DNA from: an uncultured Candidatus Saccharibacteria bacterium
Lineage (GTDB): Bacteria > Patescibacteriota > Minisyncoccia > Phycocordibacterales > UBA918
Direction: 5' to 3'
Assembly: GCA_964493145.1 (NCBI GenBank)
Contig: CAZBMV010000001.1
Coordinates: 54,623 to 118,622 of the forward strand
Length of the DNA: 64,000 nt
Shown here in pieces: positions 4,564 to 62,913 of the stretch. A program made the translations under genes and the position numbers. The notes below the pieces were generated by a model that saw only the letters and a list, made by a program, of their open reading frames with translations, did no database searches and had not been told where the DNA came from. Positions within the stretch are counted from its first letter, which is position 1. Every line of letters begins with the position of its first letter.

Positions 4564-4592
4564 AAAGCCGGAGCATTCGCTCCGGCTTTTTT
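4564..4592. terminator. intrinsic terminator-like hairpin + T-run
   Basis: AAAGCCGGAGC-ATTC-GCTCCGGCTTTTTT. Confidence 0.5.
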
Positions 4593-4595
4593 ATT

Positions 4596-4613
4596 TGGGC
4601 GGCTACCGGGAAT
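4596..4613 (-). repeat. 18-nt duplicate of the tRNA-His 3' end (TGGGCGGCTACCGGGAAT), att-like
   Basis: Identical to 7335-7352 (the 3' end of the tRNA-His gene). A further 14-nt copy lies at 7061-7074 and an inverted 16-nt copy at 4745-4760. Confidence 0.55.
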
Positions 4614-4755
4614 ATCGGTCATTACATGACCAGTATCCGTTCAGGATATTTTTGTTCGTCTGACGACTCCAAAACTATCTCTGAACAGCTTCGATTCGCG
4701 TTACGGCTTTTCTGTTTCGTTGTCACCTCACAGAAAACCCTACGCCCGGTAGCCG

Positions 4756-4799
4756 CCCAGAATATAAAAAACTCCCGAAGGAGTTTTTTATATTCTGGG
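4756..4799. repeat. 20-bp perfect-stem hairpin (CCCAGAATATAAAAAACTCC-CGAAGG-GGAGTTTTTTATATTCTGGG)
   Basis: Inverted repeat seen directly; abuts the inverted tRNA-His 3' copy. Confidence 0.5.
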
Positions 4800-4888
4800 C
4801 GACGTCGTAGAGGACGTTAGAACTGTGTTTGAGAGGTTGGGGGATGCGAGTATTTATATTCCGACGTTCTTCTCCACCCCTGAGTGCA

Positions 4889-5503
4889 CTATTTCTTGAG
4901 TAGATACTTGAGCCAGACCGTTTTCTTTCCTGGGTTGGTCCAAGCATCTTGTTTGATGACTTTCAAATTATATTGCTGAAAAATTTCTTGCAACTTTTCT
5001 GGTTGCCAGTATGAGAAGAACCTCTGATACTCATACCCGTAATCATTTTCCACAACTACTTTTTCGTCGTCACCCTCTTTAAGAGCAATGTGGAGTATCC
5101 CGCTTGGTTTGAGTATGCGACAAATTTCACCAAAAACAAAATTGATTTTTTCTTTTGGAATATGGAGTAGCGACGCTTTTGCAAACACTCCATCAAAATA
5201 CTCGTCGGCATAAGGCAAGACGGAAAGCATATCTCCTTGCAGAAAAGTTGCTGATGGTAATTTCTCACGAGCAATCTTTAAGAGGCCTTCTGATAAATCA
5301 AACCCCTGTACATCAAAACCTCGGAGCGTGAGTTTCTTTGTTTCAACGCCAGGACCGCAACCTAAATCTAAAACTTTTGCATTTTGGAAAAGTGCTTCAC
5401 TAAAAAAGTCCACGAAGTCATTGTCCCAGCTATCGTTCTCGTGGTCCTTTGAGTAATCGCTGGCAATTTTGTTATATGTATCTGCAAGTATGTTCGTTTC
5501 CAT
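4889..5503 (-). CDS. class I SAM-dependent methyltransferase
   Basis: 204 aa with motif I VLDLGCGPG and the acidic post-I region; small-molecule MTase-like. Confidence 0.75.
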   Translation of the reverse strand: METNILADTYNKIASDYSKDHENDSWDNDFVDFFSEALFQNAKVLDLGCGPGVETKKLTLRGFDVQGFDLSEGLLKIAREKLPSATFLQGDMLSVLPYADEYFDGVFAKASLLHIPKEKINFVFGEICRILKPSGILHIALKEGDDEKVVVENDYGYEYQRFFSYWQPEKLQEIFQQYNLKVIKQDAWTNPGKKTVWLKYLLKK

Positions 5504-5540
5504 TCAAAAAGTATATCAAATTACCCCACACTCTGGTTCA

Positions 5541-6068
5541 CTACACATTAACCTCAATAATCCCTCCATCACCAATTTTGTCAGGAATACTTTTTCCTAA
5601 ATGTGCGAGTATCTGTTTAATTGGTCCACCGTGAGATACGACCGCTATCGTGTTGTATTCCTTCTGTGTTATTTTTCCAAACGTATCTAAAACTCTGTTT
5701 CTAAAATCAGCAAAACTTTCCCCTTCAGGGTCAGTATTCAAAGGGTCCTTGTGTGCCTCAACCACTTCAGGATATTTCTCCAAAGCTTCTGCCTTCGTAA
5801 GACCAGAGAGTACTCCGTAACTCCTTTCTTCAAGTCCATTCACAATCTCAACAGGACACTCTATTTTTGAGCTTATGATTTCGGCACTTTCCCTCGCTCT
5901 AATTAAAGGGCTGACGAAAATAATTTCAATGCCTTTGCCAACTAAATTATCAGCCGTTACGGTGAGCTGTTCCTTTCCCAAGTCAGTAAGGTTGTCATCG
6001 TAGCTCCCGCCGTATCTGTCTTCCACATCACCCGTCGTCTCCCCGTGCCTTACCAAAAATATTTTCAT
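5541..6068 (-). CDS. histidine phosphatase family protein (phosphoglycerate-mutase-like)
   Basis: 175 aa; N-terminal LVRHGET (RHG catalytic motif) and a downstream SHGG. Confidence 0.75.
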   Translation of the reverse strand: MKIFLVRHGETTGDVEDRYGGSYDDNLTDLGKEQLTVTADNLVGKGIEIIFVSPLIRARESAEIISSKIECPVEIVNGLEERSYGVLSGLTKAEALEKYPEVVEAHKDPLNTDPEGESFADFRNRVLDTFGKITQKEYNTIAVVSHGGPIKQILAHLGKSIPDKIGDGGIIEVNV

Positions 6069-6083
6069 ACTTACCTTAACTAT

Positions 6084-6992
6084 TTATTTAATCCAAGAAG
6101 CTAACGCGTCTGCCAAATTTTGCTCAAAACCGTTATACCCGTGGTCAGCATCACCGAGAATATTCGTCTCAACCTTGGGTGAGTTGAGTAAAGCCCCCTT
6201 TATCCTATTCATTGTCTCCTCAATTGAAACTACGAGGGCATCATCTTTCCTTCCCATAATTGCATATGTTGGAATGGTTATCTTTGCGAGGAGTGGGAGT
6301 GTATCACTGGGGTTATGAAAGTTGAATATTGCGACAGGCGAATGTTCTCCGCCAAGACTAATGTACGACTTCGCCGAAAGCGGACTTTCATCCCATAATG
6401 CAGGGTTCGGCAGAAGTTCATCGCCCCTCCCTTCGGCAACCATTTGTTGTGCGGTGTTCATATCTACCTCATAATTTTTATCCAACTTTATGAGACCGAC
6501 CATATCGGAGGGTGAAAGGAAAATGACCGAGGAAAGTCTTTCGTCATTTGCCTCTGCGGAATAATATGCAACCTTCGGAGCACCGAGACTGTGTCCCGAG
6601 AGATGAATGTTTGAGAAACCTCTTGACGAGACAAAATCAATCGCTGTTCGTATATCAATCAGACTGTCTTCAAATTTCTCATATGCGTTTCCAATTCTCA
6701 CAATCGTCCGCTTTCCGTCCATAATTTTCGTTAGGTCCTTCATCAGTTCGCAACCACGATTATTGAAAGCGAGGAATGCAATATTATTGCTTGTTAGAGT
6801 TTCGGCAATAGCATCTAGGAATTTGTTTTCATAAAAATTACCCGCCATTCCGTGAACGTGCACAAGGATTTTGCCAGTTGTCTGCTCTGGTTCATACAAA
6901 AGACCAACTAGCTCTAGACCGTCTTGTGTGACCATCCTATGGAATGATGTTTTCATAATGGTGATAGAAGTATACCAAAAATTAATTCTCAC
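6084..6992 (-). CDS. alpha/beta-fold hydrolase
   Basis: 302 aa; HVHGMAGN oxyanion-region motif and GHSLGA nucleophile elbow. Confidence 0.7.
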   Translation of the reverse strand: MRINFWYTSITIMKTSFHRMVTQDGLELVGLLYEPEQTTGKILVHVHGMAGNFYENKFLDAIAETLTSNNIAFLAFNNRGCELMKDLTKIMDGKRTIVRIGNAYEKFEDSLIDIRTAIDFVSSRGFSNIHLSGHSLGAPKVAYYSAEANDERLSSVIFLSPSDMVGLIKLDKNYEVDMNTAQQMVAEGRGDELLPNPALWDESPLSAKSYISLGGEHSPVAIFNFHNPSDTLPLLAKITIPTYAIMGRKDDALVVSIEETMNRIKGALLNSPKVETNILGDADHGYNGFEQNLADALASWIK

Positions 6993-7009
6993 TAGGGTAT
7001 CGTTTGGCT

Positions 7010-7059
7010 AGAACCAAAATGTCCCCTGTTTAGGGGATATTTTGGTTCTTTTTTTCTTT
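7010..7059 (+). terminator. strong plus-strand intrinsic terminator (11-bp outer + 6-bp inner stem, then TTTTTTCTTT)
   Basis: AGAACCAAAAT GTCCCCT GTTT AGGGGAT ATTTTGGTTCT TTTTTTCTTT. No plus-strand gene lies upstream. Confidence 0.45.
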
Positions 7060-7073
7060 AGGGCGGCTACCGG

Positions 7074-7163
7074 GTGAGAAAGTGCGGGGCACTTTTGCAA
7101 GAGGTTGTCGACAGTTTGAGGACACGAGAACTGTCATACAACCTGAACAGTTCCTGTAAGGAA
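7074..7163. ncRNA. structured repeat element, family 2, copy 1 (candidate small RNA / 3'-UTR element)
   Basis: GTGAGAAAGTGC-GGGG-GCACTTTTGCAAGAGGTTGTCGACAG...CTGTCATACAACCTGAACAG-TTC-CTGTAAGGAA. A second copy at 61283-61379 keeps the stems through compensatory changes. Confidence 0.35.
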
Positions 7164-7289
7164 TCGGCGTCCAACTCTAGTTCACTACGTTCACAAGAGT
7201 TACCTGCCCGCGGTTCGCTGGTTCGTCGCATTATGAGAGCGACTTACATCGCGAACCGTTCGATTCCGGACGCGAGCTCCGCTCGCTTA

Positions 7290-7345
7290 GCCGCCCAGAC
7301 ATGTGAAAAGCCCCTTACGGGGCCTTCACATGTCTGGGCGGCTAC
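7290..7345. repeat. 18-bp perfect inverted repeat (GCCGCCCAGACATGTGAA...TTCACATGTCTGGGCGGC) enclosing a GCCCC/GGGGC inner hairpin; overlaps the tRNA-His 3' end
   Basis: Seen directly. Likely processing or terminator structure downstream of tRNA-His on the minus strand. Confidence 0.5.
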
Positions 7346-7408
7346 CGGGAATCGAACCCGAGACACAAGTGCCACAAACTTGAGTTTTACCACTAAACTA
7401 TAGCCGCC
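7335..7408 (-). tRNA. tRNA-His (anticodon GTG), with extra 5' G
   Basis: RC reads GGCGGCTATAGTTTAGTGGTAAAACTCAAGTTTGTGGCACTTGTGTCTCGGGTTCGATTCCCGGTAGCCGCCCA. Cloverleaf folds, anticodon loop is TTGTGGC, T-loop is TTCGATT. Confidence 0.85.
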
Positions 7409-8555: not shown

Positions 8556-9200
8556 TTATTTCGCTTCTTCTGTCGTTGCTTCAGTTGCCGGCTCTGTCGC
8601 TTCGGTAACTGGTGTTTCCGGCTCAACTTCTGTTGCGGTGTTTGTCTCTTCTGATGCTTTCGCTTCTTCCGCTACCTTTGCTGCGGCTTCTGCCTCTGCT
8701 TTTACCTTTGCTTCTTCAGCGAGTCGCGCCTCCTCCGCTGCCTTTGCGGCCGCTTCTTCTGCGGCGATACGTTCCCGCTCCGCCTTCATTTCAATTTCTG
8801 ATTCGGAAGAAAGACTCATGAGGCGCATACGACGCATCTGTCGCTTGATTTCACGAGCAACCTTCTCGCGGATGTAGTAGAGTTTCGCGCGTCGGACGGT
8901 GCTTCGTCTCACAATCTCAATCTTATCAATGAGCGGTGAATGGAGTGGGAAAATCTTTTCAACCCCGATGCCGTCCACAACCTTTCGTACCGTAAACGTG
9001 GCACCTGCCTCGCCACCATGCTTGCGCGCGAGCACAATTCCCTCAAACACCTGAATGCGTGTTTTGCCCTTATCCTCAATCTTCTGGTGCACGCGAACGG
9101 TGTCCCCCGCCTTGATGCCGAGATTCTTTCGGTCTTCCATGTTGACGGAAGAAATGGTGATTCCTGCTACGGTATTCATGATACGAATGACTAACTGCAA
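8556..9200 (-). CDS. rplS: 50S ribosomal protein L19 with ~90-aa Ala/Glu-rich C-terminal tail
   Basis: Core region [32 protein letters not shown]...TFTVRK...[13 protein letters not shown]...[10 protein letters not shown] matches L19. The true start may be the Met at 9179 (MNTVAG...). The tail is low-complexity [15 protein letters not shown]. Confidence 0.85.
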
Positions 9201-11071: not shown

Positions 11072-11291
11072 CAAAGAAAACCCGCTCTGTGGGTTTTTGA
11101 CTGGGCGCTAAGCACAGCACCTGCGTGCTGTGCGTGAGGGCTCGAAAAGAATTTGTATATTTTTTCTATACGAAATGAAAAAATACAAATTCTCGGGTAG
11201 AAAAAAGTTATGAACGTAGTGAATTACTTTTTGACACCGAGACCTCCACCGCCCACACATACAAAAAATCGCATCGGCGGTTTTTTGTTTT

Positions 11292-11314
11292 TGTGCCTCG
11301 ACCAGGAATCGAAC
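11292..11314 (-). repeat. 23-nt duplicate of the tRNA-Arg(TCT) 3' end (TGTGCCTCGACCAGGAATCGAAC)
   Basis: Identical to 11438-11460; lies 125 bp beyond the tRNA 3' end and itself sits inside a CCAGGAATCGAA...TTCGATTCCTGG inverted repeat. Confidence 0.55.
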
Positions 11315-11439
11315 ATTACATGTTCAGTACACCTTGTCGCTATTTTGTTTCCTTACGTCACAAAATAGCTGGCAAGGTCTTCGATTCCTGGACCCAATCA
11401 CAGAAAAACCGGCATGGAGCCGGTATTTTTGTGATTGTG

Positions 11440-11512
11440 TGCCTCGACCAGGAATCGAACCTGGAATAACGGCTTAGAAGTCCGCAGTTATATCCATTTA
11501 ACTATCGAGGCA
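11440..11512 (-). tRNA. tRNA-Arg (anticodon TCT), imperfect anticodon stem
   Basis: RC reads GCCTCGATAGTTAAATGGATATAACTGCGGACTTCTAAGCCGTTATTCCAGGTTCGATTCCTGGTCGAGGCA. Acceptor and T-arm are canonical; loop is CTTCTAA. Confidence 0.6.
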
Positions 11513-15573: not shown

Positions 15574-15660
15574 GGAAGGGTGACAGAGTGGTCGATTGTA
15601 CCTGTCTTGAAAACAGGAGTCTGGGAAACCGGACCGCGAGTTCGAATCTCGCCCCTTCCG
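15574..15660 (+). tRNA. tRNA-Ser (anticodon TGA), long variable arm
   Basis: GGAAGGGTGACAGAGTGGTCGATTGTACCTGTCTTGAAAACAGGAGTCTGGGAAACCGGACCGCGAGTTCGAATCTCGCCCCTTCCG. Confidence 0.85.
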
Positions 15661-15787
15661 CAAAACTAGAAAATTCAGGGTTCTTCCCTGGATTTTTTAG
15701 TTTCTGCGCAGGAGATTCGAAGCTGTTCAGAGATATTTTGGGAGTGATAGCGAACAAAAATATCCTGAACGGGTACTGAAACTGTAA

Positions 15788-15811
15788 GTTTCGAATCTCG
15801 CCCCTTCCGCC
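15788..15811 (+). repeat. near-identical (22/24) duplicate of the tRNA-Ser 3' end, ~130 bp downstream; followed by a terminator hairpin at 15821-15850
   Basis: GTTTCGAATCTCGCCCCTTCCGCC versus the tRNA 3' end AGTTCGAATCTCGCCCCTTCCGCA. Confidence 0.55.
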
Positions 15812-15909
15812 AAAATTGGAAAGCCCATATACGATATGTGGGCTTTTTAGTTTTTCACACTTCAACACAGAGAACAAAATTCACATAGACAGCGTGCTAC
15901 AATACACAC

Positions 15910-16517: not shown

Positions 16518-16794
16518 GCACGCAAACTGCTTTGCGTGCGTACAGTGGTGCCAAGTGGAACCATGTTTCGGCTATTACTAATGCCGAAACAGGCGAGCTC
16601 GGGGTGAGAAGCGAATACTTGGAGCTTCGCAAGACCTTGAGCACGCTAGTGCGAAAGGTGTACCGCTTCTGTAAGAAGAAAGTGCTTACTATTTTGGAAA
16701 CGAAGTAGAACAAAATAGTTAGCAACTTGACCCCACCGTGCCCTCATCAGCCGCAACCAAAATCTAGCGTCTATTGCTTGCTTCAAAACTTAGT

Positions 16795-21022: not shown

Positions 21023-21203
21023 ATAGACATCTGCGGTGCCTGTGGTATAGTTTTGGTGCGCAGGAATGCGCTTTTTCATTTTCTTTTTTGTCTTTACAAA
21101 TTAGAATATAAACATGTTTGGTATATTTCCACACATCCGCCTTACAGGCGCTGTACACCTTTAGGGTATTTTTGTTCGTAAACTCCAATAATTCCACTAA
21201 AGG

Positions 21204-21232
21204 TCCGGAAAAGTGCCCCGCACTTTTCCGCC
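21204..21232. repeat. hairpin AAAAGTGC-CCC-GCACTTTT abutting the tRNA-Lys 5' end; same stem as the first hairpin of the 7074 element, inverted
   Basis: Seen directly. Confidence 0.4.
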
Positions 21233-21237
21233 CATAG

Positions 21238-21310
21238 CTCAGCCGGTAGAGCAGCTCCCTTTTAAGGAGAAGGTCCCAGGTTCGATCCCTGGTGGGCGGA
21301 CAAAATTTTT
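21238..21310 (+). tRNA. tRNA-Lys (anticodon TTT)
   Basis: CCGCCCATAGCTCAGCCGGTAGAGCAGCTCCCTTTTAAGGAGAAGGTCCCAGGTTCGATCCCTGGTGGGCGGA; loop CTTTTAA. Confidence 0.8.
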
Positions 21311-21340
21311 AAAGAAAATTTTGGACGCACAAAAAACTGT

Positions 21341-21366
21341 CCGGGGGACAGTTTTTAAGGGATCGA
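21341..21366 (+). terminator. intrinsic terminator AAAAAACTGTCC-GGG-GGACAGTTTTT
   Basis: Seen directly, 30 nt after tRNA-Lys. Confidence 0.55.
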
Positions 21367-21430
21367 AGACCTTGCGAGATACCTTTGCGAGTGAAGCGAA
21401 GCAAAGTATCCGCAAGGTGTACTGCTCGTG

Positions 21431-21447
21431 TAACGAGAGATACCCTG
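21431..21447 (+). repeat. 17-nt direct duplicate of the tRNA-Lys 3' end (CCCTGGTGGGCGGACAA)
   Basis: Identical to 21297-21313. Confidence 0.5.
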
Positions 21448-21549
21448 GTGGGCGGACAAGCGTTAAGAAACCCTGACCTTCGTCAGGGTTTTAGCTTGTC
21501 CGAGCCGCAGCGATGTTTTGCCGACCGCAAGGAAGCAAAACCGCGAGGC

Positions 21550-22022
21550 GGGGTCGCGAGTGCTTAGATAAATATTTATGAAATTAATATTTAACTTAGC
21601 AACTCGTGACGACAAGGTTTGTTTAGTACGCAAACCACTTTGCGTACGGCGCTTGTCCGAGCCGCAGCGATGTGGCCAGAAAATAACGAGCGTAGCGAAT
21701 ATATTTTCTGAGTCTGTCTTAAAATTCTATTCAAAATGAATTTTAAGACGAAAGCTGTCAAAAAGGCAAAACCGCGAGGCGGGGTCGCGAGTGCTTATGA
21801 GCGAAGCGAATTAGGAACAGCAGTCTGGGAGACTGCTGTTCCGTGACGACAACGCCATTGGGGTCGCGAGTGCTTAACGAACGCAGTGAGTTTAGGAATA
21901 ATAATCTGGGAGATTGTTATTCCGTGACGACAAGATTTGTTTAAGCGAGCTGGGGTCGCGAGTGCTTATGAGCGAAGCGAATTAGGAACAGCAGTCTGGG
22001 AGACTGCTGTTCCGTGACGACA
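21550..22022 (+). repeat. tandem array of four homologous ~66-74-nt structured units (21550-21615, 21781-21852, 21860-21933, 21952-22022)
   Basis: Each unit is GGGGTCGCGAGTGCTTA + variable region ending in a 12-13-bp hairpin + CGTGACGACA(A). Units 2 and 4 are identical; unit 3 keeps its hairpin through compensatory changes. Upstream partial repeats GCAAAACCGCGAGGC x2 and CTTGTCCGAGCCGCAGCGATGT x2. Confidence 0.6.
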
Positions 22023-22107
22023 GGACCAAAGAAGGTTTTGGCACAAAAAGTGATGTCTTTCGCATGGTGGCGAAAAGTGCTACATTTAACTCCATAATCT
22101 AACGTCT

Positions 22108-28656: not shown

Positions 28657-28760
28657 CCTGAATCCCCATATACTTCGGCGCGCTTCAATCAGAAACACTC
28701 ACCATATATGAAATATGCCTCGTATTTCCTCATTCGCGCTTCTTGTCTCTGGGGTTTCAG
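28657..28760 (+). ncRNA. structured repeat element, family 1, copy A (3' of pilB)
   Basis: Outer stem CTGAATCCCCA/TGGGGTTTCAG around a conserved core (CTTCAATCAGAAACACTCACCATATATGAAATATGCCTCGTATTTCCTCATTCG). Homologous copies at 31913-32029 and 61080-61207. Confidence 0.4.
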
Positions 28761-31912: not shown

Positions 31913-32029
31913 ACTTTTTAAAACAATCTCATACTTTGTTGTCCTTCAATCGGAAACGCTCATCGTATATTGAATACGCCTCGCATTTCCTCATTCGGAC
32001 GCCTCGTCTGAACTTGTTTTGAAAAAGTT
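31913..32029 (+). ncRNA. structured repeat element, family 1, copy B
   Basis: Outer stem ACTTTTAAAACAA/TTGTTTTGAAAAAGT; core CTTCAATCGGAAACGCTCATCGTATATTGAATACGCCTCGCATTTCCTCATTCGG. Confidence 0.4.
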
Positions 32030-40079: not shown

Positions 40080-40108
40080 AAATTTAGAAATACAAAAACC
40101 AACACTTT

Positions 40109-40142
40109 TATATTATAATTCCCCATGGGGAATTATAATATA
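40109..40142. repeat. perfect 34-bp palindrome TATATTATAATTCCCCATGGGGAATTATAATATA (copy 1; dyad extends to 40105-40146)
   Basis: Exact copies at 40758-40791 and 53597-53630, each with its own extra dyad-symmetric flanks. Confidence 0.8.
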
Positions 40143-40154
40143 AAAGTGTAATGT

Positions 40155-40724: not shown

Positions 40725-40757
40725 ATAAGCCAGCGCAACTTATTTTGTAACACAACT

Positions 40758-40791
40758 TATATTATAATTCCCCATGGGGAATTATAATATA
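40758..40791. repeat. perfect 34-bp palindrome, copy 2 (dyad extends to 40751-40798)
   Basis: CACAACTTA-[core]-TAAGTTGTG. Confidence 0.8.
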
Positions 40792-40844
40792 AGTTGTGTT
40801 CAACGGGAGCATTGGAACAATAGGTATGATTGTTTGAAAACAAG

Positions 40845-53585: not shown

Positions 53586-53639
53586 TTCCGCCGCTTATAT
53601 TATAATTCCCCATGGGGAATTATAATATAAGCGGCGGAA
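53586..53639. repeat. 54-nt perfect palindrome containing the third copy of the 34-bp core; abuts the pcrA stop, ~50 nt upstream of the ksgA start
   Basis: TTCCGCCGCTTA-[34-bp core]-TAAGCGGCGGAA. Confidence 0.8.
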
Positions 53640-59651: not shown

Positions 59652-59910
59652 CATGGAGCAGGTTCCGAGGCGACCTGAACAAAACGTCTCAAACAACACG
59701 CCCGAATGGTGGAATCACTTTCACCCTTCGGGCTTTTTCTTTTTGGGCACGTATACCATAAGTTCCGATCGGAACTTATGGTATAAATATTTTTTGTGGA
59801 ATCTTAAGTGCAAACCGTTACACGTCCCGCGTATCCTACGCACACCCGTATGTCTATTGACGGTAATATATAAATTTGCTACACTTTATATACAGTAAAT
59901 TCATATATTT

Positions 59911-61079: not shown

Positions 61080-61207
61080 TCTAGAACTCATTTCAAACCC
61101 CATCTGCTTTGTTGCGTTCGTCGCTCAAACACTCATCGTATATTGAATACGCCTCGTGTTCTCGCTTCTCCGCGTCTCGCATCTTAGGTTTTGAAATGAG
61201 TTCTAGG
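61080..61207 (+). ncRNA. structured repeat element, family 1, copy C
   Basis: 20-bp outer inverted repeat TCTAGAACTCATTTCAAACC/GGTTTTGAAATGAGTTCTAG around the core CTCAAACACTCATCGTATATTGAATACGCCTCG. Confidence 0.4.
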
Positions 61208-61282
61208 TCTTCATTCTGAAGCTGGGCGCTTCAAGCACGTGTGACTCTTTCAGTGCATCGGATTCTTCAAGGTCGGCTATCG

Positions 61283-61379
61283 TGAGAAAGTCCGGGGGAC
61301 TTTCGCAAGAGGTTGTCGACAAATTTTGGTTTGTGTAAACCAAAATTTGTCATACAACCTGAACAGGTTCTGTAAGAAA
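61283..61379. ncRNA. structured repeat element, family 2, copy 2
   Basis: GTGAGAAAGTCC-GGGG-GGACTTTCGCAAGAGGTTGTCGACAA-[hairpin AATTTTGGTTT-GTGTA-AACCAAAATTT]-GTCATACAACCTGAACAG-GTT-CTGTAAGAAA. Outer stem GGTCGGCTATC/GATAGCCGACC overlaps the comM stop. Confidence 0.4.
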
Positions 61380-61389
61380 GATAGCCGAC

Positions 61390-62913
61390 CTATGTTTTGG
61401 CGCGATAGTGGAGTGCTTCAAGAACGTGCGCTTCCTTGAGGTCGGGCGAATCGTCCAAGTCAGCGATTGTCTGCGAAACTTTAATGAGGCGATGGTAACT
61501 TCGCGGGGAGAGTCCAAGTTTTTCTGCTGAGCGCTTGAGAAGGTCGCGAACCGCGGGTGTCATGTGCACGCGTTCATCAATATCACGTGACGACATTTCT
61601 CCGTTTGCGTTGATGCCACTTCCCCTGAATCGCTCGTACTGGCGTTTGCGCGCGTGCATGATTTGTTCACGTGCACGGTCAGTTTCACCACGAGTTCCAG
61701 GAGAGGATACCCTCTTTTCCGTGAGCGTATTGTAGTCAACGTGCGGTACCGAGAGCCAGAGATCAATACGGTCAAGAATTGGCCCGGAAATTTTGTGCTT
61801 GTACGTTTGGAGCATCTGTTGCGTGTAGTCGCCGCGCTCATCGCCACCGCGAGTTGGGTTCATTGCCGCGACGAGAATAAAATCTGCGGGAAAAAGTGCG
61901 CTCGCCTGAACACGAGAAATGGACACGACCCTGTCCTCAAGCGGTTGACGGAGCGCATCTATCGCACGTCGCTCAAATTCGGGAAACTCATCCAGAAAGA
62001 GCACCCCCTTATGGGCGAGGGTCACCTCTCCCGGACGCGGGTGCGTACCGCCACCGACGAGCGCGGTGTATGACGCGGTGTGATGTGGTGCACGAAAGGG
62101 CGGGCAGAGTGAAACGCTCTCCCCAGTTCCTGCAACCGAGTGAATGGAAGTCACCTCGAGCGCCTCTTCGCGCGTGAGTGGCGGAAGAATTCCTCGGAGT
62201 GCTCTCGCGAGCATCGTCTTCCCCGTCCCCGGTGGACCGACCATGATGACGTTGTGCCTCCCGGCGGCAGCGATCATAAGTCCGCGCTTCGCAGACTCTT
62301 GCCCGCGAACGTCTTCAAGACGGACGGCACTTTCACTCCAGAGTGTCTCAATTTGGGTTGGTGGTATTTCGGGTATGCGTGCGTGATCATCACGCGTCGT
62401 ATCAATGTGCCTGATAACCTCGGTGAGCGTGCGCGCAGGCGTGATGCGTATTCCTGAAATGAGTGCCGCCTCCTCTCTGTTCTCATAGGGGACAACGACT
62501 TCGGAAAAGTGTGCGGATAGCGCTTTGCGCACAATGGGGAGGACACCGCGTACCGGGCGGAGTGTACCATCAAGGGAGAGTTCACCAATGAAGCAGATAC
62601 TTGAGACATCGGCGCGCAGTTCTTCTTTCGCCATGAGGTACGAAATCGCAATGGGCAAATCAAAGAGAGGACCTTCCTTCTTGAGGTCTGCGGGAGCGAG
62701 CGAAATAACCACTTTGTGATTCTCGCCCTTTGGTGCGGAGAAGCCGGAATTCTTAAGGGCGCTGTTCACCCTGTCGCGCGCTTCCTCCACCGCCTTCCCC
62801 GGAAGACCGACAATGGTAAACGCAAACAGACCTCGCGAGAGGTCTGTCTCCACCGTAACGATGTCGGCGCTCGTGAGCGAAGGCTGTGCGGAGTGAACAC
62901 GTGCGATCGCCAT
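61390..62913 (-). CDS. comM: YifB/ComM-family Mg-chelatase-like AAA+ ATPase
   Basis: N-terminal Lon-protease-like region, Walker A GPPGTGKTMLA, and a C-terminal Mg-chelatase subunit ChlI-like domain. Confidence 0.8.
   Translation of the reverse strand: MAIARVHSAQPSLTSADIVTVETDLSRGLFAFTIVGLPGKAVEEARDRVNSALKNSGFSAPKGENHKVVISLAPADLKKEGPLFDLPIAISYLMAKEELRADVSSICFIGELSLDGTLRPVRGVLPIVRKALSAHFSEVVVPYENREEAALISGIRITPARTLTEVIRHIDTTRDDHARIPEIPPTQIETLWSESAVRLEDVRGQESAKRGLMIAAAGRHNVIMVGPPGTGKTMLARALRGILPPLTREEALEVTSIHSVAGTGESVSLCPPFRAPHHTASYTALVGGGTHPRPGEVTLAHKGVLFLDEFPEFERRAIDALRQPLEDRVVSISRVQASALFPADFILVAAMNPTRGGDERGDYTQQMLQTYKHKISGPILDRIDLWLSVPHVDYNTLTEKRVSSPGTRGETDRAREQIMHARKRQYERFRGSGINANGEMSSRDIDERVHMTPAVRDLLKRSAEKLGLSPRSYHRLIKVSQTIADLDDSPDLKEAHVLEALHYRAKT

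What the first reader, a model, noticed from the sequence alone, without database searches (positions are those of the whole stretch)
7074..7163. Family-2 structured element with compensatory base changes in two copies
- The two copies lie at 7074-7163 and 61283-61379.
- Shared blocks are GTGAGAAAGT, CTTT(T/C)GCAAGAGGTTGTCGACA, GTCATACAACCTGAACAG and CTGTAAG.
- The first hairpin covaries: GTGC-GGGG-GCAC in copy 1 and GTCC-GGGG-GGAC in copy 2.
- The inner hairpin covaries: CAGTT...AACTG versus AATTTTGGTTT...AACCAAAATTT.
- The ACAG-loop-CTGT hairpin has different loops in the two copies.
- Copy 2 sits inside a further 11-bp stem that overlaps the last codons of comM.
- Copy 1 sits between a tRNA-His 3'-end duplicate and the terminator hairpins downstream of tRNA-His.
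- The first-hairpin stem also occurs inverted immediately 5' of tRNA-Lys (21204-21232).
- This is probably a small structured RNA or a structured 3'-UTR/terminator module; I could not match it to any known family.
Basis: seen in the sequence. Interest (0 to 1): 0.6.

Follow-up and report, generated by a model that had tools for sequence, protein, structure and literature searches.

The report
Structured insertion repeat of Patescibacteria genomes
The two look-alike stretches are real members of a large, undescribed family of about 92-base three-hairpin repeats found only in a group of ultra-small (Patescibacteria) bacteria. They behave more like small insertion modules sitting in partial copies of neighbouring tRNA, 5S rRNA and comM genes than like an ordinary small RNA gene or terminator.

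Summary
Windows 7074-7165 and 61282-61381 are two copies of one element: exact 17- and 18-mers occur only at these two sites, and my covariance model scores them at 94 and 77 bits.

No Rfam family matches, and I found no paper describing the element.

Essentially all are Patescibacteria MAGs, with several copies per genome and some head-to-tail arrays.

Across 138 distinct sequences, three hairpins covary strongly. 93% of cells are paired, and 485 double changes compare with 113±8 in shuffles.

It is NNN-CUGUAAG-N'N'N'.

Several features argue against a terminator or a plain sRNA gene:
- Orientation relative to neighbouring genes is mixed.
- No promoter or terminator frames the window copies.
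- Wobble pairs give no strand signal.
- No neighbouring protein is conserved.

About one copy in six sits inside a short partial copy of the adjacent gene. The targets include tRNA halves, 5S rRNA, the comM 3' end and protein N-termini. The intact gene lies 40-210 nt away on the element's 3' side.

My best reading is the conserved core of small non-autonomous insertion modules. The mechanism and the enzyme are unknown.

The parts
7061..7074 (.). Displaced copy of the tRNA-His 3' end (GGGCGGCTACCGGG, the reverse complement of the T-stem and acceptor 3' strand). It directly abuts the 5' edge of copy 1.
   Evidence: Direct-repeat family D12 (4587-4610, 7051-7074, 7326-7349); sequence.
7074..7165 (+). 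Element copy 1 (the finding). It begins G|TGAGAA. P2 hairpin is 7075-7099, P3 long hairpin is 7102-7144, linker GAACAG follows, and the P4 stem 7150-7164 carries the loop CUGUAAG at 7154-7160.
   Evidence: cmsearch 94.1 bits, E 4e-20; fold; family covariation.
7166..7287 (+). Copy-specific spacer with further hairpins. It contains a degenerate, forward-oriented copy of the tRNA-His T-arm (GTTCGATTCCGG, 7258-7269).
   Evidence: Sequence; fold.
7288..7344 (.). Hairpin of about 20 base pairs. Its left arm (TAGCCGCCCAGACATGTGAA) is a forward copy of the tRNA-His acceptor 3' strand. Its right arm is the real 3' end of tRNA-His. TAGCCGCCC could alternatively pair with 7061-7069 to close the module.
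   Evidence: (hairpin alignment).
7336..7407 (-). Intact tRNA-His(GTG), the gene whose 3' end is duplicated.
   Evidence: ARAGORN; Rfam tRNA 64 bits.
61203..61283 (-). Displaced, diverged duplicate of the last 26 codons plus stop of comM (TIADLEESDALKESHVLEAPSFRMKT*, against TIADLDDSPDLKEAHVLEALHYRAKT* in the intact gene). It abuts the 5' edge of copy 2.
   Evidence: ORF 61203..61343(-); motif scan.
61270..61281 (+). 5' arm of the 12-bp closing stem (AGGTCGGCTATC), lying in the displaced comM codons.
   Evidence: MFE -60.5 kcal/mol, z = -9.7.
61282..61381 (+). Element copy 2. P2 is 61283-61307 and P3 is 61310-61360. The loop CUGUAAG is at 61370-61376. The P4 stem is weak, with two standard pairs.
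   Evidence: cmsearch 76.6 bits; fold.
61380..61391 (+). 3' arm of the closing stem (GATAGCCGACCT). It overlaps the comM stop codon by 2 nt.
61390..62913 (-). Intact comM (ChlI, Mg_chelatase and Mg_chelatase_C domains).
   Evidence: Pfam scan.
21136..21231 (-). Third, diverged family copy. Its P2 is the same as in copy 1. It has the GACCUUU...AAAGGUGUACAG variant. Its 5' edge overlaps the first bases of tRNA-Lys in the divergent orientation.
   Evidence: cmsearch 44.2 bits; sequence.
16604..16680 (+). Fourth family copy, between tRNA-Arg(gcg) and tRNA-Gly.
   Evidence: cmsearch 29.8 bits, E 4e-5; sequence.
15695..15793 (+). 'Family-1' relative downstream of tRNA-Ser. The order is tRNA, terminator, antisense T-loop fragment, core, then a displaced tRNA-Ser 3' end (15790-15822).
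   Evidence: cmsearch 20.5 bits; family D8.
11310..11393 (-). 'Family-1' relative downstream of tRNA-Arg(tct), followed by a displaced tRNA-Arg 3' end (11281-11314).
   Evidence: cmsearch 24.1 bits; family D19.
21331..21439 (+). Weak 'family-1' relative downstream of tRNA-Lys, followed by a displaced tRNA-Lys 3' end.
   Evidence: cmsearch 16 bits, E 0.06; sequence.
4597..4704 (-). Third copy of the tRNA-His 3' end (4597-4613) plus a weak 'family-1' core (4616-4704). This is the far end of a 2.4-kb three-gene islet.
   Evidence: Family D12; cmsearch 10.9 bits, E 0.9, so weak.

Best explanation
**What it is**

The finding is one copy of a previously undescribed family of structured repeats about 92 nt long. 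The family is confined to a clade of Patescibacteria (Kaiserbacteria, Paceibacteria, Nomurabacteria-type MAGs).

The core consists of:
- G|UGAGAA
- P2 hairpin
- UUYGCAAGAGG
- P3, a long and length-variable hairpin
- CCUGAACAG
- P4, three to four pairs closing the loop CUGUAAG

**How I think it works**

I read it as the conserved core of small, non-autonomous insertion modules rather than as a host RNA gene.

Shown:
- The core has a sharp 5' edge after G(G/A)G and a ragged 3' side.
- It sits in intergenic DNA in either orientation.
- It forms arrays and nests inside other repeats.
- About one copy in six lies inside a short partial copy of the adjacent gene. The 11-68 nt 5' of the core recur 40-210 nt downstream as part of the intact gene.

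Inferred:
- A module made of core, spacer and a replacement gene end recombines with the chromosome across the shared gene segment. This could be a Campbell-type single crossover or copy-choice.
- The resident gene end is displaced, and the gene stays intact with the end the module supplies, including a promoter or terminator where needed.
- The three hairpins would act in a single-stranded intermediate, DNA or RNA, as the structure recognised by a trans-acting enzyme that has not been identified.
For: **Family and structure**
- cmsearch found 140 matches in 757 kb.
- 93.1% of cells are paired, against 72.0% in shuffles.
- 485 double changes compare with 113±7.7 in shuffles (0 of 500 shuffles reach the observed value). 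Slid controls reach at most 48% paired.

**Insertion-like behaviour**
- Orientation is mixed.
- No neighbouring protein is conserved.
- Head-to-tail arrays occur in L107, L092 and L034. Truncated units occur in L106 and L044.
- Only 1 of 80 comM loci from metagenomes carries the element, the closest at 68% identity. The comM-linked copies are limited to the window, L106 (78%), L122 (68%) and L014 (about 60%).

**Gene-end duplication**
- The upstream flank is repeated downstream in 16 of 90 copies, against 5 of 90 upstream.
- tRNA-Asn, Val and Tyr 5' parts are duplicated. The intact tRNAs were confirmed.
- 5S rRNA is a target (L018).
- comM is a target. L106 has an exact 68-nt repeat.
- The RNase HII and P-loop kinase N-termini are targets. 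The displaced copies differ from the intact genes mostly at synonymous sites.
- The element is enriched near tRNA genes: 23 of 126 copies lie within 300 nt, against 5.1±2.0 for random placement.
- In the window, the tRNA-His locus is a tandem array of two such modules, one carrying three cargo genes.
- In L170 a toxin-antitoxin islet sits at the same comM site with an 85-nt repeat.

**Strand**
- Wobble pairs are strand-symmetric and rare.
Against: - No transposase, integrase or reverse transcriptase lies within 3 kb of any of 118 loci. The exact motif is absent from 2.9 million viral contigs.
- There are no terminal inverted repeats and no fixed-length target duplication.
- More than 80% of copies show no flanking repeat.
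- The partial gene copy continues 5-20 nt beyond the core, with 2-4 target bases missing. Neither a simple att duplication nor a target-site duplication predicts this.
- I have no filled-versus-empty comparison between close strains. The comparison is only between genomes whose ComM is at most 78% identical.
- The core stays nearly unchanged while ComM diverges to 60-78% identity. That could instead mean purifying selection for a host function.
- The linker blocks look invariant partly because the scan pattern required them.
Confidence: 0.5

Rival explanations
1. It is a host-functional structured RNA: a stand-alone sRNA, or an RNA processed out of tRNA leader or trailer transcripts. Its P4 hairpin mimics a GUN-type anticodon arm (C-U-G-U-A-A-G, with U33-G34-U35 in a 7-nt loop) and binds a tRNA-recognising protein or a tRNA. 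The repeats are gene copies kept by selection.
For: - Covariation is strong in all three helices.
- The core is conserved across genomes whose ComM is only 60-78% identical.
- One base pair shows the path GC (98), GU (19), AU (12) on the plus strand.
- 11 of the 23 tRNA-linked copies lie upstream of the tRNA and in the same orientation, so they would be part of pre-tRNA leaders.
- CTGTAAG-loop hairpins number 144 in 895 kb, against 7 or fewer for control loops.
- In L044, L059 and L060 a second hairpin 3' of the core, which in L044 and L060 corresponds to the anticodon arm of the pseudo-tRNA, also reads CTGTAAG. The intact tRNAs read CTGTTAA in L044 and CTGTAAA in L060. No intact tRNA was found in L059.
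Against: - No promoter or terminator frames the window copies.
- Orientation relative to neighbouring genes is mixed.
- G-U counts are equal on the two strands, 116 versus 121.
- At one pair, 70 sequences have C.A on the plus strand, which would be G.U on the minus strand.
- Head-to-tail arrays, truncated units, nesting in other repeats and embedding in partial gene copies are not expected of an RNA gene.
Confidence: 0.25
2. It is a junction scar. The element is the conserved end (an arm-type or accessory site) of a family of classical integrase-dependent islands or prophages that integrate into tRNA and comM ends. What we see are att-proximal remnants left after the body of the island was deleted.
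For: - Direct repeats made of the target gene's end, with the gene restored, are the classical signature.
- The window's tRNA-His array includes a 2.4-kb three-gene islet.
- L170 has a 1.4-kb toxin-antitoxin islet at the comM end with an 85-nt repeat.
- From established knowledge, comM and tRNA genes are common integration sites.
Against: - No integrase was found next to any of 118 loci.
- Junctions fall at many positions: after tRNA nt 7, in the D-loop, at nt 24-26, in the T-stem, in 5S rRNA and in protein N-termini. This is more variety than one site-specific recombinase is expected to handle.
- 5'-end targets need a promoter to be supplied.
- Most copies have no repeat at all.
- The L170 islet lacks the element.
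- Arrays contain whole units without any spacer.
Confidence: 0.15
3. It is a structured 3'-UTR or terminator module, or a neutral chance similarity.
For: - Copy 2 lies just past the comM stop codon and copy 1 lies downstream of tRNA-His.
- Some copies sit inside terminator-like GC stems (L076, L112).
Against: - Both window copies are antisense to the gene they follow.
- There is no T-run after the element.
- Orientation is mixed.
- Chance is excluded.
Confidence: 0.05

Closest known systems
REP/BIME, BOX and Correia-type structured intergenic repeats (REPINs, MITE-like elements)
   Same: - Short, non-coding and multi-copy.
- Intergenic and hairpin-forming.
- Found in either orientation.
- Combined in mosaics with other repeat modules.
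- No enzyme encoded within the element.
   Different: - The core is much more elaborate: three covarying helices with invariant linkers and a 7-nt signature loop.
- There are no terminal inverted repeats.
- There is no short fixed target duplication.
- It is frequently embedded in 11-85 nt partial copies of the adjacent gene.
- It is enriched at tRNA and 5S genes.
- No RAYT-like or transposase partner was seen.
Integrase-type genomic islets at tRNA or comM ends
   Same: - The insert is flanked by a direct repeat made of the target gene's end.
- The gene remains intact.
- Tandem arrays form at one site, as at tRNA-His in the window.
   Different: - Inserts are only about 150-300 nt and carry no integrase.
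- Targets include gene 5' ends and many different junction positions.
- The displaced fragment continues a few bases beyond the element.
Folded single-strand recombination sites (integron attC; CTX-phage attP; IS200/IS605 end hairpins)
   Same: - The structure is conserved rather than the sequence of the stems.
- There is little tolerance of wobble pairs.
- In some copies a closing stem pairs target-like sequence with its complement (window copy 2, L106, L014).
   Different: - No R''/R' core sites (RYYYAAC...GTTRRRY).
- Three hairpins rather than one bulged hairpin.
- The closing stem is present in only about 8-11% of copies.
- There is no conserved 4-5 nt target, only G at -1 and a G bias at -3.
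- No IntI, Xer or TnpA link has been shown.

Membership tests
Any Rfam 15 family (4227 models) | Covariance-model score at or above the family's gathering threshold. | tested here: not met
   Only tRNAs are found in the window at gathering score. At E<=10 around both copies there are only chance hairpin matches, such as miRNA precursors and flavi_FSE at 17.6 bits against a threshold of 43.
tRNA / tRNA-like RNA | Cloverleaf with a T-loop, a D-arm and an anticodon arm, detectable by ARAGORN or Rfam RF00005. | tested here: not met
   No tRNA call overlaps either copy. Only the P4 loop (CUGUAAG) resembles a Tyr-type anticodon loop.
Intrinsic terminator / 3'-UTR module | GC-rich hairpin followed by a T-run, on the sense strand downstream of a gene. 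| tested here: not met
   No terminator-like site lies at or after either copy. Both copies are antisense to the gene they follow. Orientation is mixed family-wide.
MITE | Short, non-coding, multi-copy. | tested here: met
   About 92 nt, with at least 140 copies in 757 kb of positive loci. Stem lengths vary by non-multiples of 3, so there is no conserved ORF.
MITE | Terminal inverted repeats and a short target duplication of fixed length. | tested here: not met
   The ends GTGAGAA... and ...CTGTAAGNNN are not inverted repeats. Flanking repeats are absent in more than 80% of copies and measure 11-68 nt in the rest.
MITE | A related autonomous element that encodes a transposase. | tested here: inconclusive
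   No enriched protein family was found within 3 kb of 118 loci. Whole genomes were not searched.
REP/BIME-like mosaic repeats | Intergenic palindromic units combined with other short motifs. | tested here: met
   Copies are inserted at fixed points inside other repeat families...CGTCTTTGCGAG|core|...GCAATCCA, and AAACCGCGAGG..GGG|core|AGTGCTTA, the latter matching window repeats at 21528-22025.
REP/BIME-like mosaic repeats | A single-copy RAYT (HUH) gene flanked by the repeats. | not testable with these tools
   This needs complete genomes. None was seen in the fetched loci.
Integrase-type island at a tRNA or gene end | A direct repeat of the target gene's end flanks the insert, and the gene is restored. 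| tested here: met
   Seen in 13 exact cases, plus diverged ones including both window copies. The intact tRNA and 5S genes were confirmed.
Integrase-type island at a tRNA or gene end | A tyrosine or serine recombinase gene inside the insert. | tested here: not met
   Inserts of 150-300 nt have no room for one. None lies within 3 kb either.
Integron attC | R''/L''...L'/R' single bulged hairpin with RYYYAAC and GTTRRRY cores. | tested here: not met
   The sequence shows three separate helices and no such core sites at the ends.
IS200/IS605-derived PATE | Subterminal hairpins, insertion 3' of a conserved 4-5 nt target, no target duplication, and a TnpA somewhere in the genome. | tested here: inconclusive
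   P2 and P4 are subterminal hairpins. The upstream bias is only G 99% at -1 and G 63% at -3. The flanking gene-end repeats do not fit. The presence of TnpA could not be tested.
Self-cleaving ribozyme (hammerhead, twister, hatchet, pistol, hairpin, HDV-like) | A match to the class consensus, and cleavage activity. | tested here: not met
   There are no Rfam ribozyme hits. Manual comparison with the hammerhead and hairpin cores fails, because the AGAA segment is Watson-Crick paired and covaries. Activity of a new ribozyme class cannot be tested here.

The most novel reading that the evidence does not exclude
The element is the cis-acting core of a new kind of bacterial mobile unit, a roughly 100-300 nt protein-less module. 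It would propagate through a folded single-stranded intermediate, possibly circular, of DNA or RNA. It would integrate into the ends of essential, highly conserved genes (tRNA, 5S rRNA, comM) by pairing with, or recombining across, a short gene segment that it carries. That step would replace the gene end and keep the host viable.

The spacer-less head-to-tail arrays and the sharp G|UGAGAA edge would then reflect multimers of a circular monomer and a precise processing site. That site might even be a new self-cleaving motif.
Probability: 0.15. Interest if true: 0.9.

Novelty: new variant of a known kind. Interest (0 to 1): 0.64.

Why it matters
Patescibacteria have tiny, streamlined genomes, yet this clade carries many copies of an elaborate structured repeat, eight family members in 64 kb here. 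No database or paper available to me describes it.

If it is mobile, it shows a way of invading essential genes without killing the host, by bringing a replacement gene end. It would also explain the many tRNA-end and gene-end duplicates in these genomes.

If it is an RNA, it is a new, well-supported structured RNA class with an anticodon-arm-like loop.

In practical terms:
- The covariance model gives annotators a handle on sequence that is currently unannotated.
- It helps explain apparent pseudo-tRNA fragments next to intact tRNA genes in these genomes.

Tried and rejected
- **Rfam.** Searches at gathering score and at E<=10 found nothing relevant.
- **Viral contigs.** The junction pattern gave 0 hits. 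The 17-mer gave 3 unrelated coding-sequence hits.
- **Neighbour-protein clustering.** Around 118 loci there is no recombinase and no enriched family; the largest real cluster covers 7 loci.
- **Strand assignment from wobble pairs.** The result is symmetric overall, and two individual sites conflict.
- **Promoter and terminator scan.** Nothing frames the window copies.
- **Look-up of the exact ComM protein.** It is not on record.
- **Hammerhead and hairpin ribozyme cores.** I compared by eye and rejected both. There is no CUGAUGA, and the AGAA segment lies in a covarying helix.
- **Retron msr/msd, DGR template repeat, group I/II intron fragment, integron attC, Tn7-like ends, TIGR arrays.** I considered these from knowledge of their anatomy and rejected them. 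There is no adjacent RT, no adenine-specific differences, no Intron_gpI hit on the element itself, no core sites, and the unit size is wrong.
- **An orthologous group.** L050, L084, L101, L102, L104 and L016 turned out not to be syntenic. They share only the element, an extended 3' motif (GCAnnnnGTACGGCTC) and copy-specific closing stems.
- **Literature.** Five full-text searches found no description. PMC13011429 concerns group I introns in Patescibacteria tRNAs, not this element.

Full report
**1. The observation**

The two stretches are there and are clearly related.
- The 17-mer GCAAGAGGTTGTCGACA and the 18-mer GTCATACAACCTGAACAG each occur only at these two sites in 64 kb, even with three mismatches allowed. 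Chance expectation is 0.22 and 0.04.
- Each copy folds into the same set of hairpins.
- Copy 2 plus its flanks folds at -60.5 kcal/mol, against -27.4±3.4 for shuffles.
- ARAGORN and Rfam find eight tRNAs in the window and nothing on the element.
- Permissive Rfam searches around both copies return only chance hairpin matches.

**2. A large family**

I scanned one genome per species for the linker motif GCAAGAGG-N25-55-CCTGAACAG-N3-5-CTGTAAG.
- Record titles are almost all Patescibacteria: Kaiserbacteria, Paceibacteria/Paceibacterota, Nomurabacteria, Parcubacteria, Minisyncoccia, and 'Saccharibacteria'-labelled third-party assemblies.
- The few records labelled otherwise come from the same binning studies and may be mis-binned.
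- Several MAGs contribute five or more loci.
- The same motif is absent from 2.9 million viral contigs.

A caveat applies. The three linker blocks look invariant among these hits because the pattern demanded them.

**3. Structure**

I built a covariance model from 15 seeds. It finds 140 matches at E<0.001 in 757 kb. On the resulting alignment:
- 93.1% of cells form standard pairs, against 72.0±0.5% in shuffles.
- 485 cells carry changes on both sides, against 113±7.7 in shuffles (0 of 500 shuffles reach this).
- Sliding the partners by 1-3 columns drops pairing to 48% or less.
- All nine P2 pairs, six of seven basal P3 pairs and three of four P4 pairs show double changes.

The alignment is fitted to the model, which favours the structure. 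The slid controls and the size of the effect make the helices secure all the same.

The distal part of P3 varies from 25 to 51 nt and is paired in each copy.

The three bases before CUGUAAG covary with the three after it (57, 43 and 58 double changes). CUGUAAG is therefore a 7-nt loop. Hairpins with this loop and three perfect closing pairs number 144 in 895 kb, and 137 of them are in family context. Control loops give 7 or fewer.

**4. More copies in the window**

The model also finds:
- 21136-21231 on the minus strand (44 bits), which explains the 'inverted first hairpin' 5' of tRNA-Lys.
- 16604-16680 on the plus strand (30 bits).
- More weakly, the units next to tRNA-Arg(tct), tRNA-Ser, tRNA-Lys and the far tRNA-His repeat.

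These weaker units carry GACCUUG...CAAGGUGUAC in place of GAGGUUG...CAACCUGAAC, a double compensatory swap. They belong to the same superfamily.

Seven of the eight copies lie within about 150 nt of a tRNA gene. The eighth lies at comM.

**5. Context: not a terminator, probably not an sRNA gene**

- Using a greedy longest-ORF proxy for genes, the flanking-gene orientations are 33 (+,+), 21 (+,-), 21 (-,-) and 17 (-,+).
- No protein family is enriched within 3 kb.
- No promoter-like or terminator-like site frames either window copy, and both are antisense to the gene they follow.
- G-U pairs in minimum-energy folds number 116 on the plus strand and 121 on the minus strand.
- At most pairs G-U makes up about 1% of cells.
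- One site (GC 98, GU 19, AU 12) favours the plus strand. Another (UA 56, C.A 70) would be a wobble on the minus strand.
- The strand, and whether the acting molecule is RNA or DNA, is unresolved.

**6. The key pattern**

*The window copies.* Copy 1 is preceded by a 14-nt copy of the tRNA-His 3' end, which recurs 275 nt to the right as the real tRNA end. Copy 2 is preceded by a diverged copy of the last 26 comM codons. The displaced copy reads TIADLEESDALKESHVLEAPSFRMKT* and the intact gene reads TIADLDDSPDLKEAHVLEALHYRAKT*.

*Across the family.* The sequence directly 5' of the element is repeated downstream in 16 of 90 copies with full flanks, and upstream in only 5. Thirteen exact cases abut the element's first base. 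In every case read in detail, the downstream partner is part of an intact gene:
- tRNA-Asn, tRNA-Val and tRNA-Tyr 5' parts, and an intron-containing, initiator-like tRNA
- 5S rRNA
- comM
- the N-termini of RNase HII and a P-loop kinase

*The layout.* In the element's orientation the order is X, element, Z' (5-20 nt of continuing target, with 2-4 target bases missing), spacer, then X-n-Z and the rest of the intact gene.

*Signs of recurrent events.*
- For protein genes, the displaced and intact ends differ mostly at synonymous sites or encode different N-termini. L064 has MFRFEVGVDEVG against MVKKIRYIVGVDEVG.
- L069 carries two successive modules, each with its own gene start.
- The events are therefore recurrent and involve alleles that were once functional.

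*Edge of the element.* The base before TGAGAA is G in 99% of copies and lies inside every repeat. Position -3 is G in 63%.

*tRNA proximity.* Proximity is 4.5-fold above random placement, 23 of 126 against 5.1±2.0.

**7. The comM site**

- Of 80 comM loci fetched from metagenomes at 45-68% identity, only the closest (L122) has the element, directly after the stop codon and antisense.
- With L106 (78% ComM identity) and L014 (about 60%), four genomes share the arrangement.
- The junction in L122 lies 19 nt deeper in comM, at a GGTGA microhomology.
- L106 has 1.4 tandem units with an exact 68-nt gene-end repeat and a truncated older unit.
- L170 has no element, but a 1.4-kb toxin-antitoxin islet sits at the same place, flanked by an 85-nt repeat of the comM end.
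- In the window, a 2.4-kb islet with three enzyme genes lies between two tRNA-His end copies.

Gene-end duplication around small inserts is therefore a general habit of these genomes. This element is the recurrent minimal passenger or agent.

**8. Closing stem**

The 12-bp stem around copy 2 pairs displaced comM codons with sequence just past the stop codon.
- L106 and L014 have the same stem. L106 has a G.U on the plus strand.
- Family-wide, 9 of 112 copies have a perfect stem of at least 8 bp within 30 nt of the core, against 0.8 expected.
- It is real but is a minority feature.
- In L076 and L112 it looks like a terminator hairpin split by the element.

**9. Interpretation**

- Shown: a new, clade-restricted, strongly structured repeat family with insertion-like context.
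- Inferred: it is the core of non-autonomous modules that enter gene ends by recombination across a carried gene segment, with the hairpins serving as the recognition structure in a single-stranded intermediate.
- Not explained: the enzyme, the Z' continuation, the directionality, and the arrays without spacers.
- The main rival is a host-functional RNA with an anticodon-arm-like P4. It keeps a quarter of my belief, because the core is so well conserved across diverged genomes.

**10. Comparison with what is known**

The element is closest in kind to REP/BIME, BOX and Correia-type structured repeats, and in context to integrase-type islets. It fails defining tests for MITEs, attC sites, terminators, tRNAs and every Rfam family. 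Five full-text searches found no description.

Noticed in passing
window 4597-7407: The tRNA-His locus is a tandem array. In order it contains: intact tRNA-His (7336-7407, minus strand); the 260-nt module holding the finding; a 3'-end copy (7061-7074); a plus-strand terminator hairpin (7010-7058); three cargo genes (alpha/beta hydrolase, histidine phosphatase, SAM methyltransferase); a 'family-1' unit (4616-4800); and a third 3'-end copy (4597-4613).
   Followed up: partly
window 11281-11511; 15574-15822; 21228-21500: tRNA-Arg(tct), tRNA-Ser and tRNA-Lys are each followed by the same layout: a new terminator, an antisense T-loop fragment, a 'family-1' core ending in a (C/A)TGTAA(G/T/C) loop, a displaced tRNA 3' end, and the original terminator. 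Here the intact gene is on the 5' side of the core, the mirror image of the finding.
   Followed up: partly
window 28670-28748, 31931-32009, 61104-61182: A second dispersed repeat family of 79 nt. The copy at 61104 is enclosed by an inverted repeat of about 20 bp (61082-61101 with 61189-61210) and lies between the AAA/DUF4143 ATPase gene and the displaced comM fragment. Relatives in other genomes host copies of the finding's element (L023, L100).
   Followed up: no
window 40107-40144, 40756-40793, 53594-53631, 59750-59787: Near-perfect 38-nt palindromes (CTTATATTATAATTCCCCATGGGGAATTATAATATAAG) occur at four intergenic sites. They may be bidirectional terminators or a further repeat family.
   Followed up: no
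window 21528-22025: An array of units made of GGGGTCGCGAGTGCTTA plus the hairpin TTAGGAACAGCAGTCTGGGAGACTGCTGTTCC. In L119 and at window 16560-16700, the finding's element is inserted inside a relative of this unit, between ...GGG and AGTGCTTA.
   Followed up: no
L044 4478-4500; L059; L060 6492-6520: 3' of the element there is a second hairpin whose loop also reads CTGTAAG. In L044 and L060 it corresponds to the anticodon arm of the pseudo-tRNA. The intact tRNAs have CTGTTAA (Asn, L044) and CTGTAAA (Tyr, L060); no intact tRNA was found in L059. The loop has U-G-U at the positions that tRNA-guanine transglycosylase and colicin-E5-type nucleases recognise. That last point is from my own knowledge and was not tested.
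   Followed up: partly
L170 2400-3900: A 1.4-kb islet is inserted in the comM 3' end, flanked by an 85-nt direct repeat of the gene end. It carries a Gp49/HigB-like toxin (judged by eye), an XRE-type antitoxin and a 153-aa ORF. It has no integrase and no copy of the element.
   Followed up: partly
L007 7319-7578; L012 4876-5065: The intact tRNA genes next to the element carry group I introns (Rfam Intron_gpI, 88 and 62 bits). This matches the report of anticodon-loop introns in Patescibacteria tRNAs (PMC13011429). ARAGORN therefore misses these tRNAs.
   Followed up: partly
L107 (minus strand, four units), L092, L034, L005: Head-to-tail arrays of whole units (94-114 nt period) with no spacer. 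The P4 3' strand overlaps the next unit's GTGAGAA.
   Followed up: partly
window 8556-9200: An ORF resembling ribosomal protein L19 carries a long Ala/Glu/Lys-rich C-terminal extension. This is read from the translation only.
   Followed up: no
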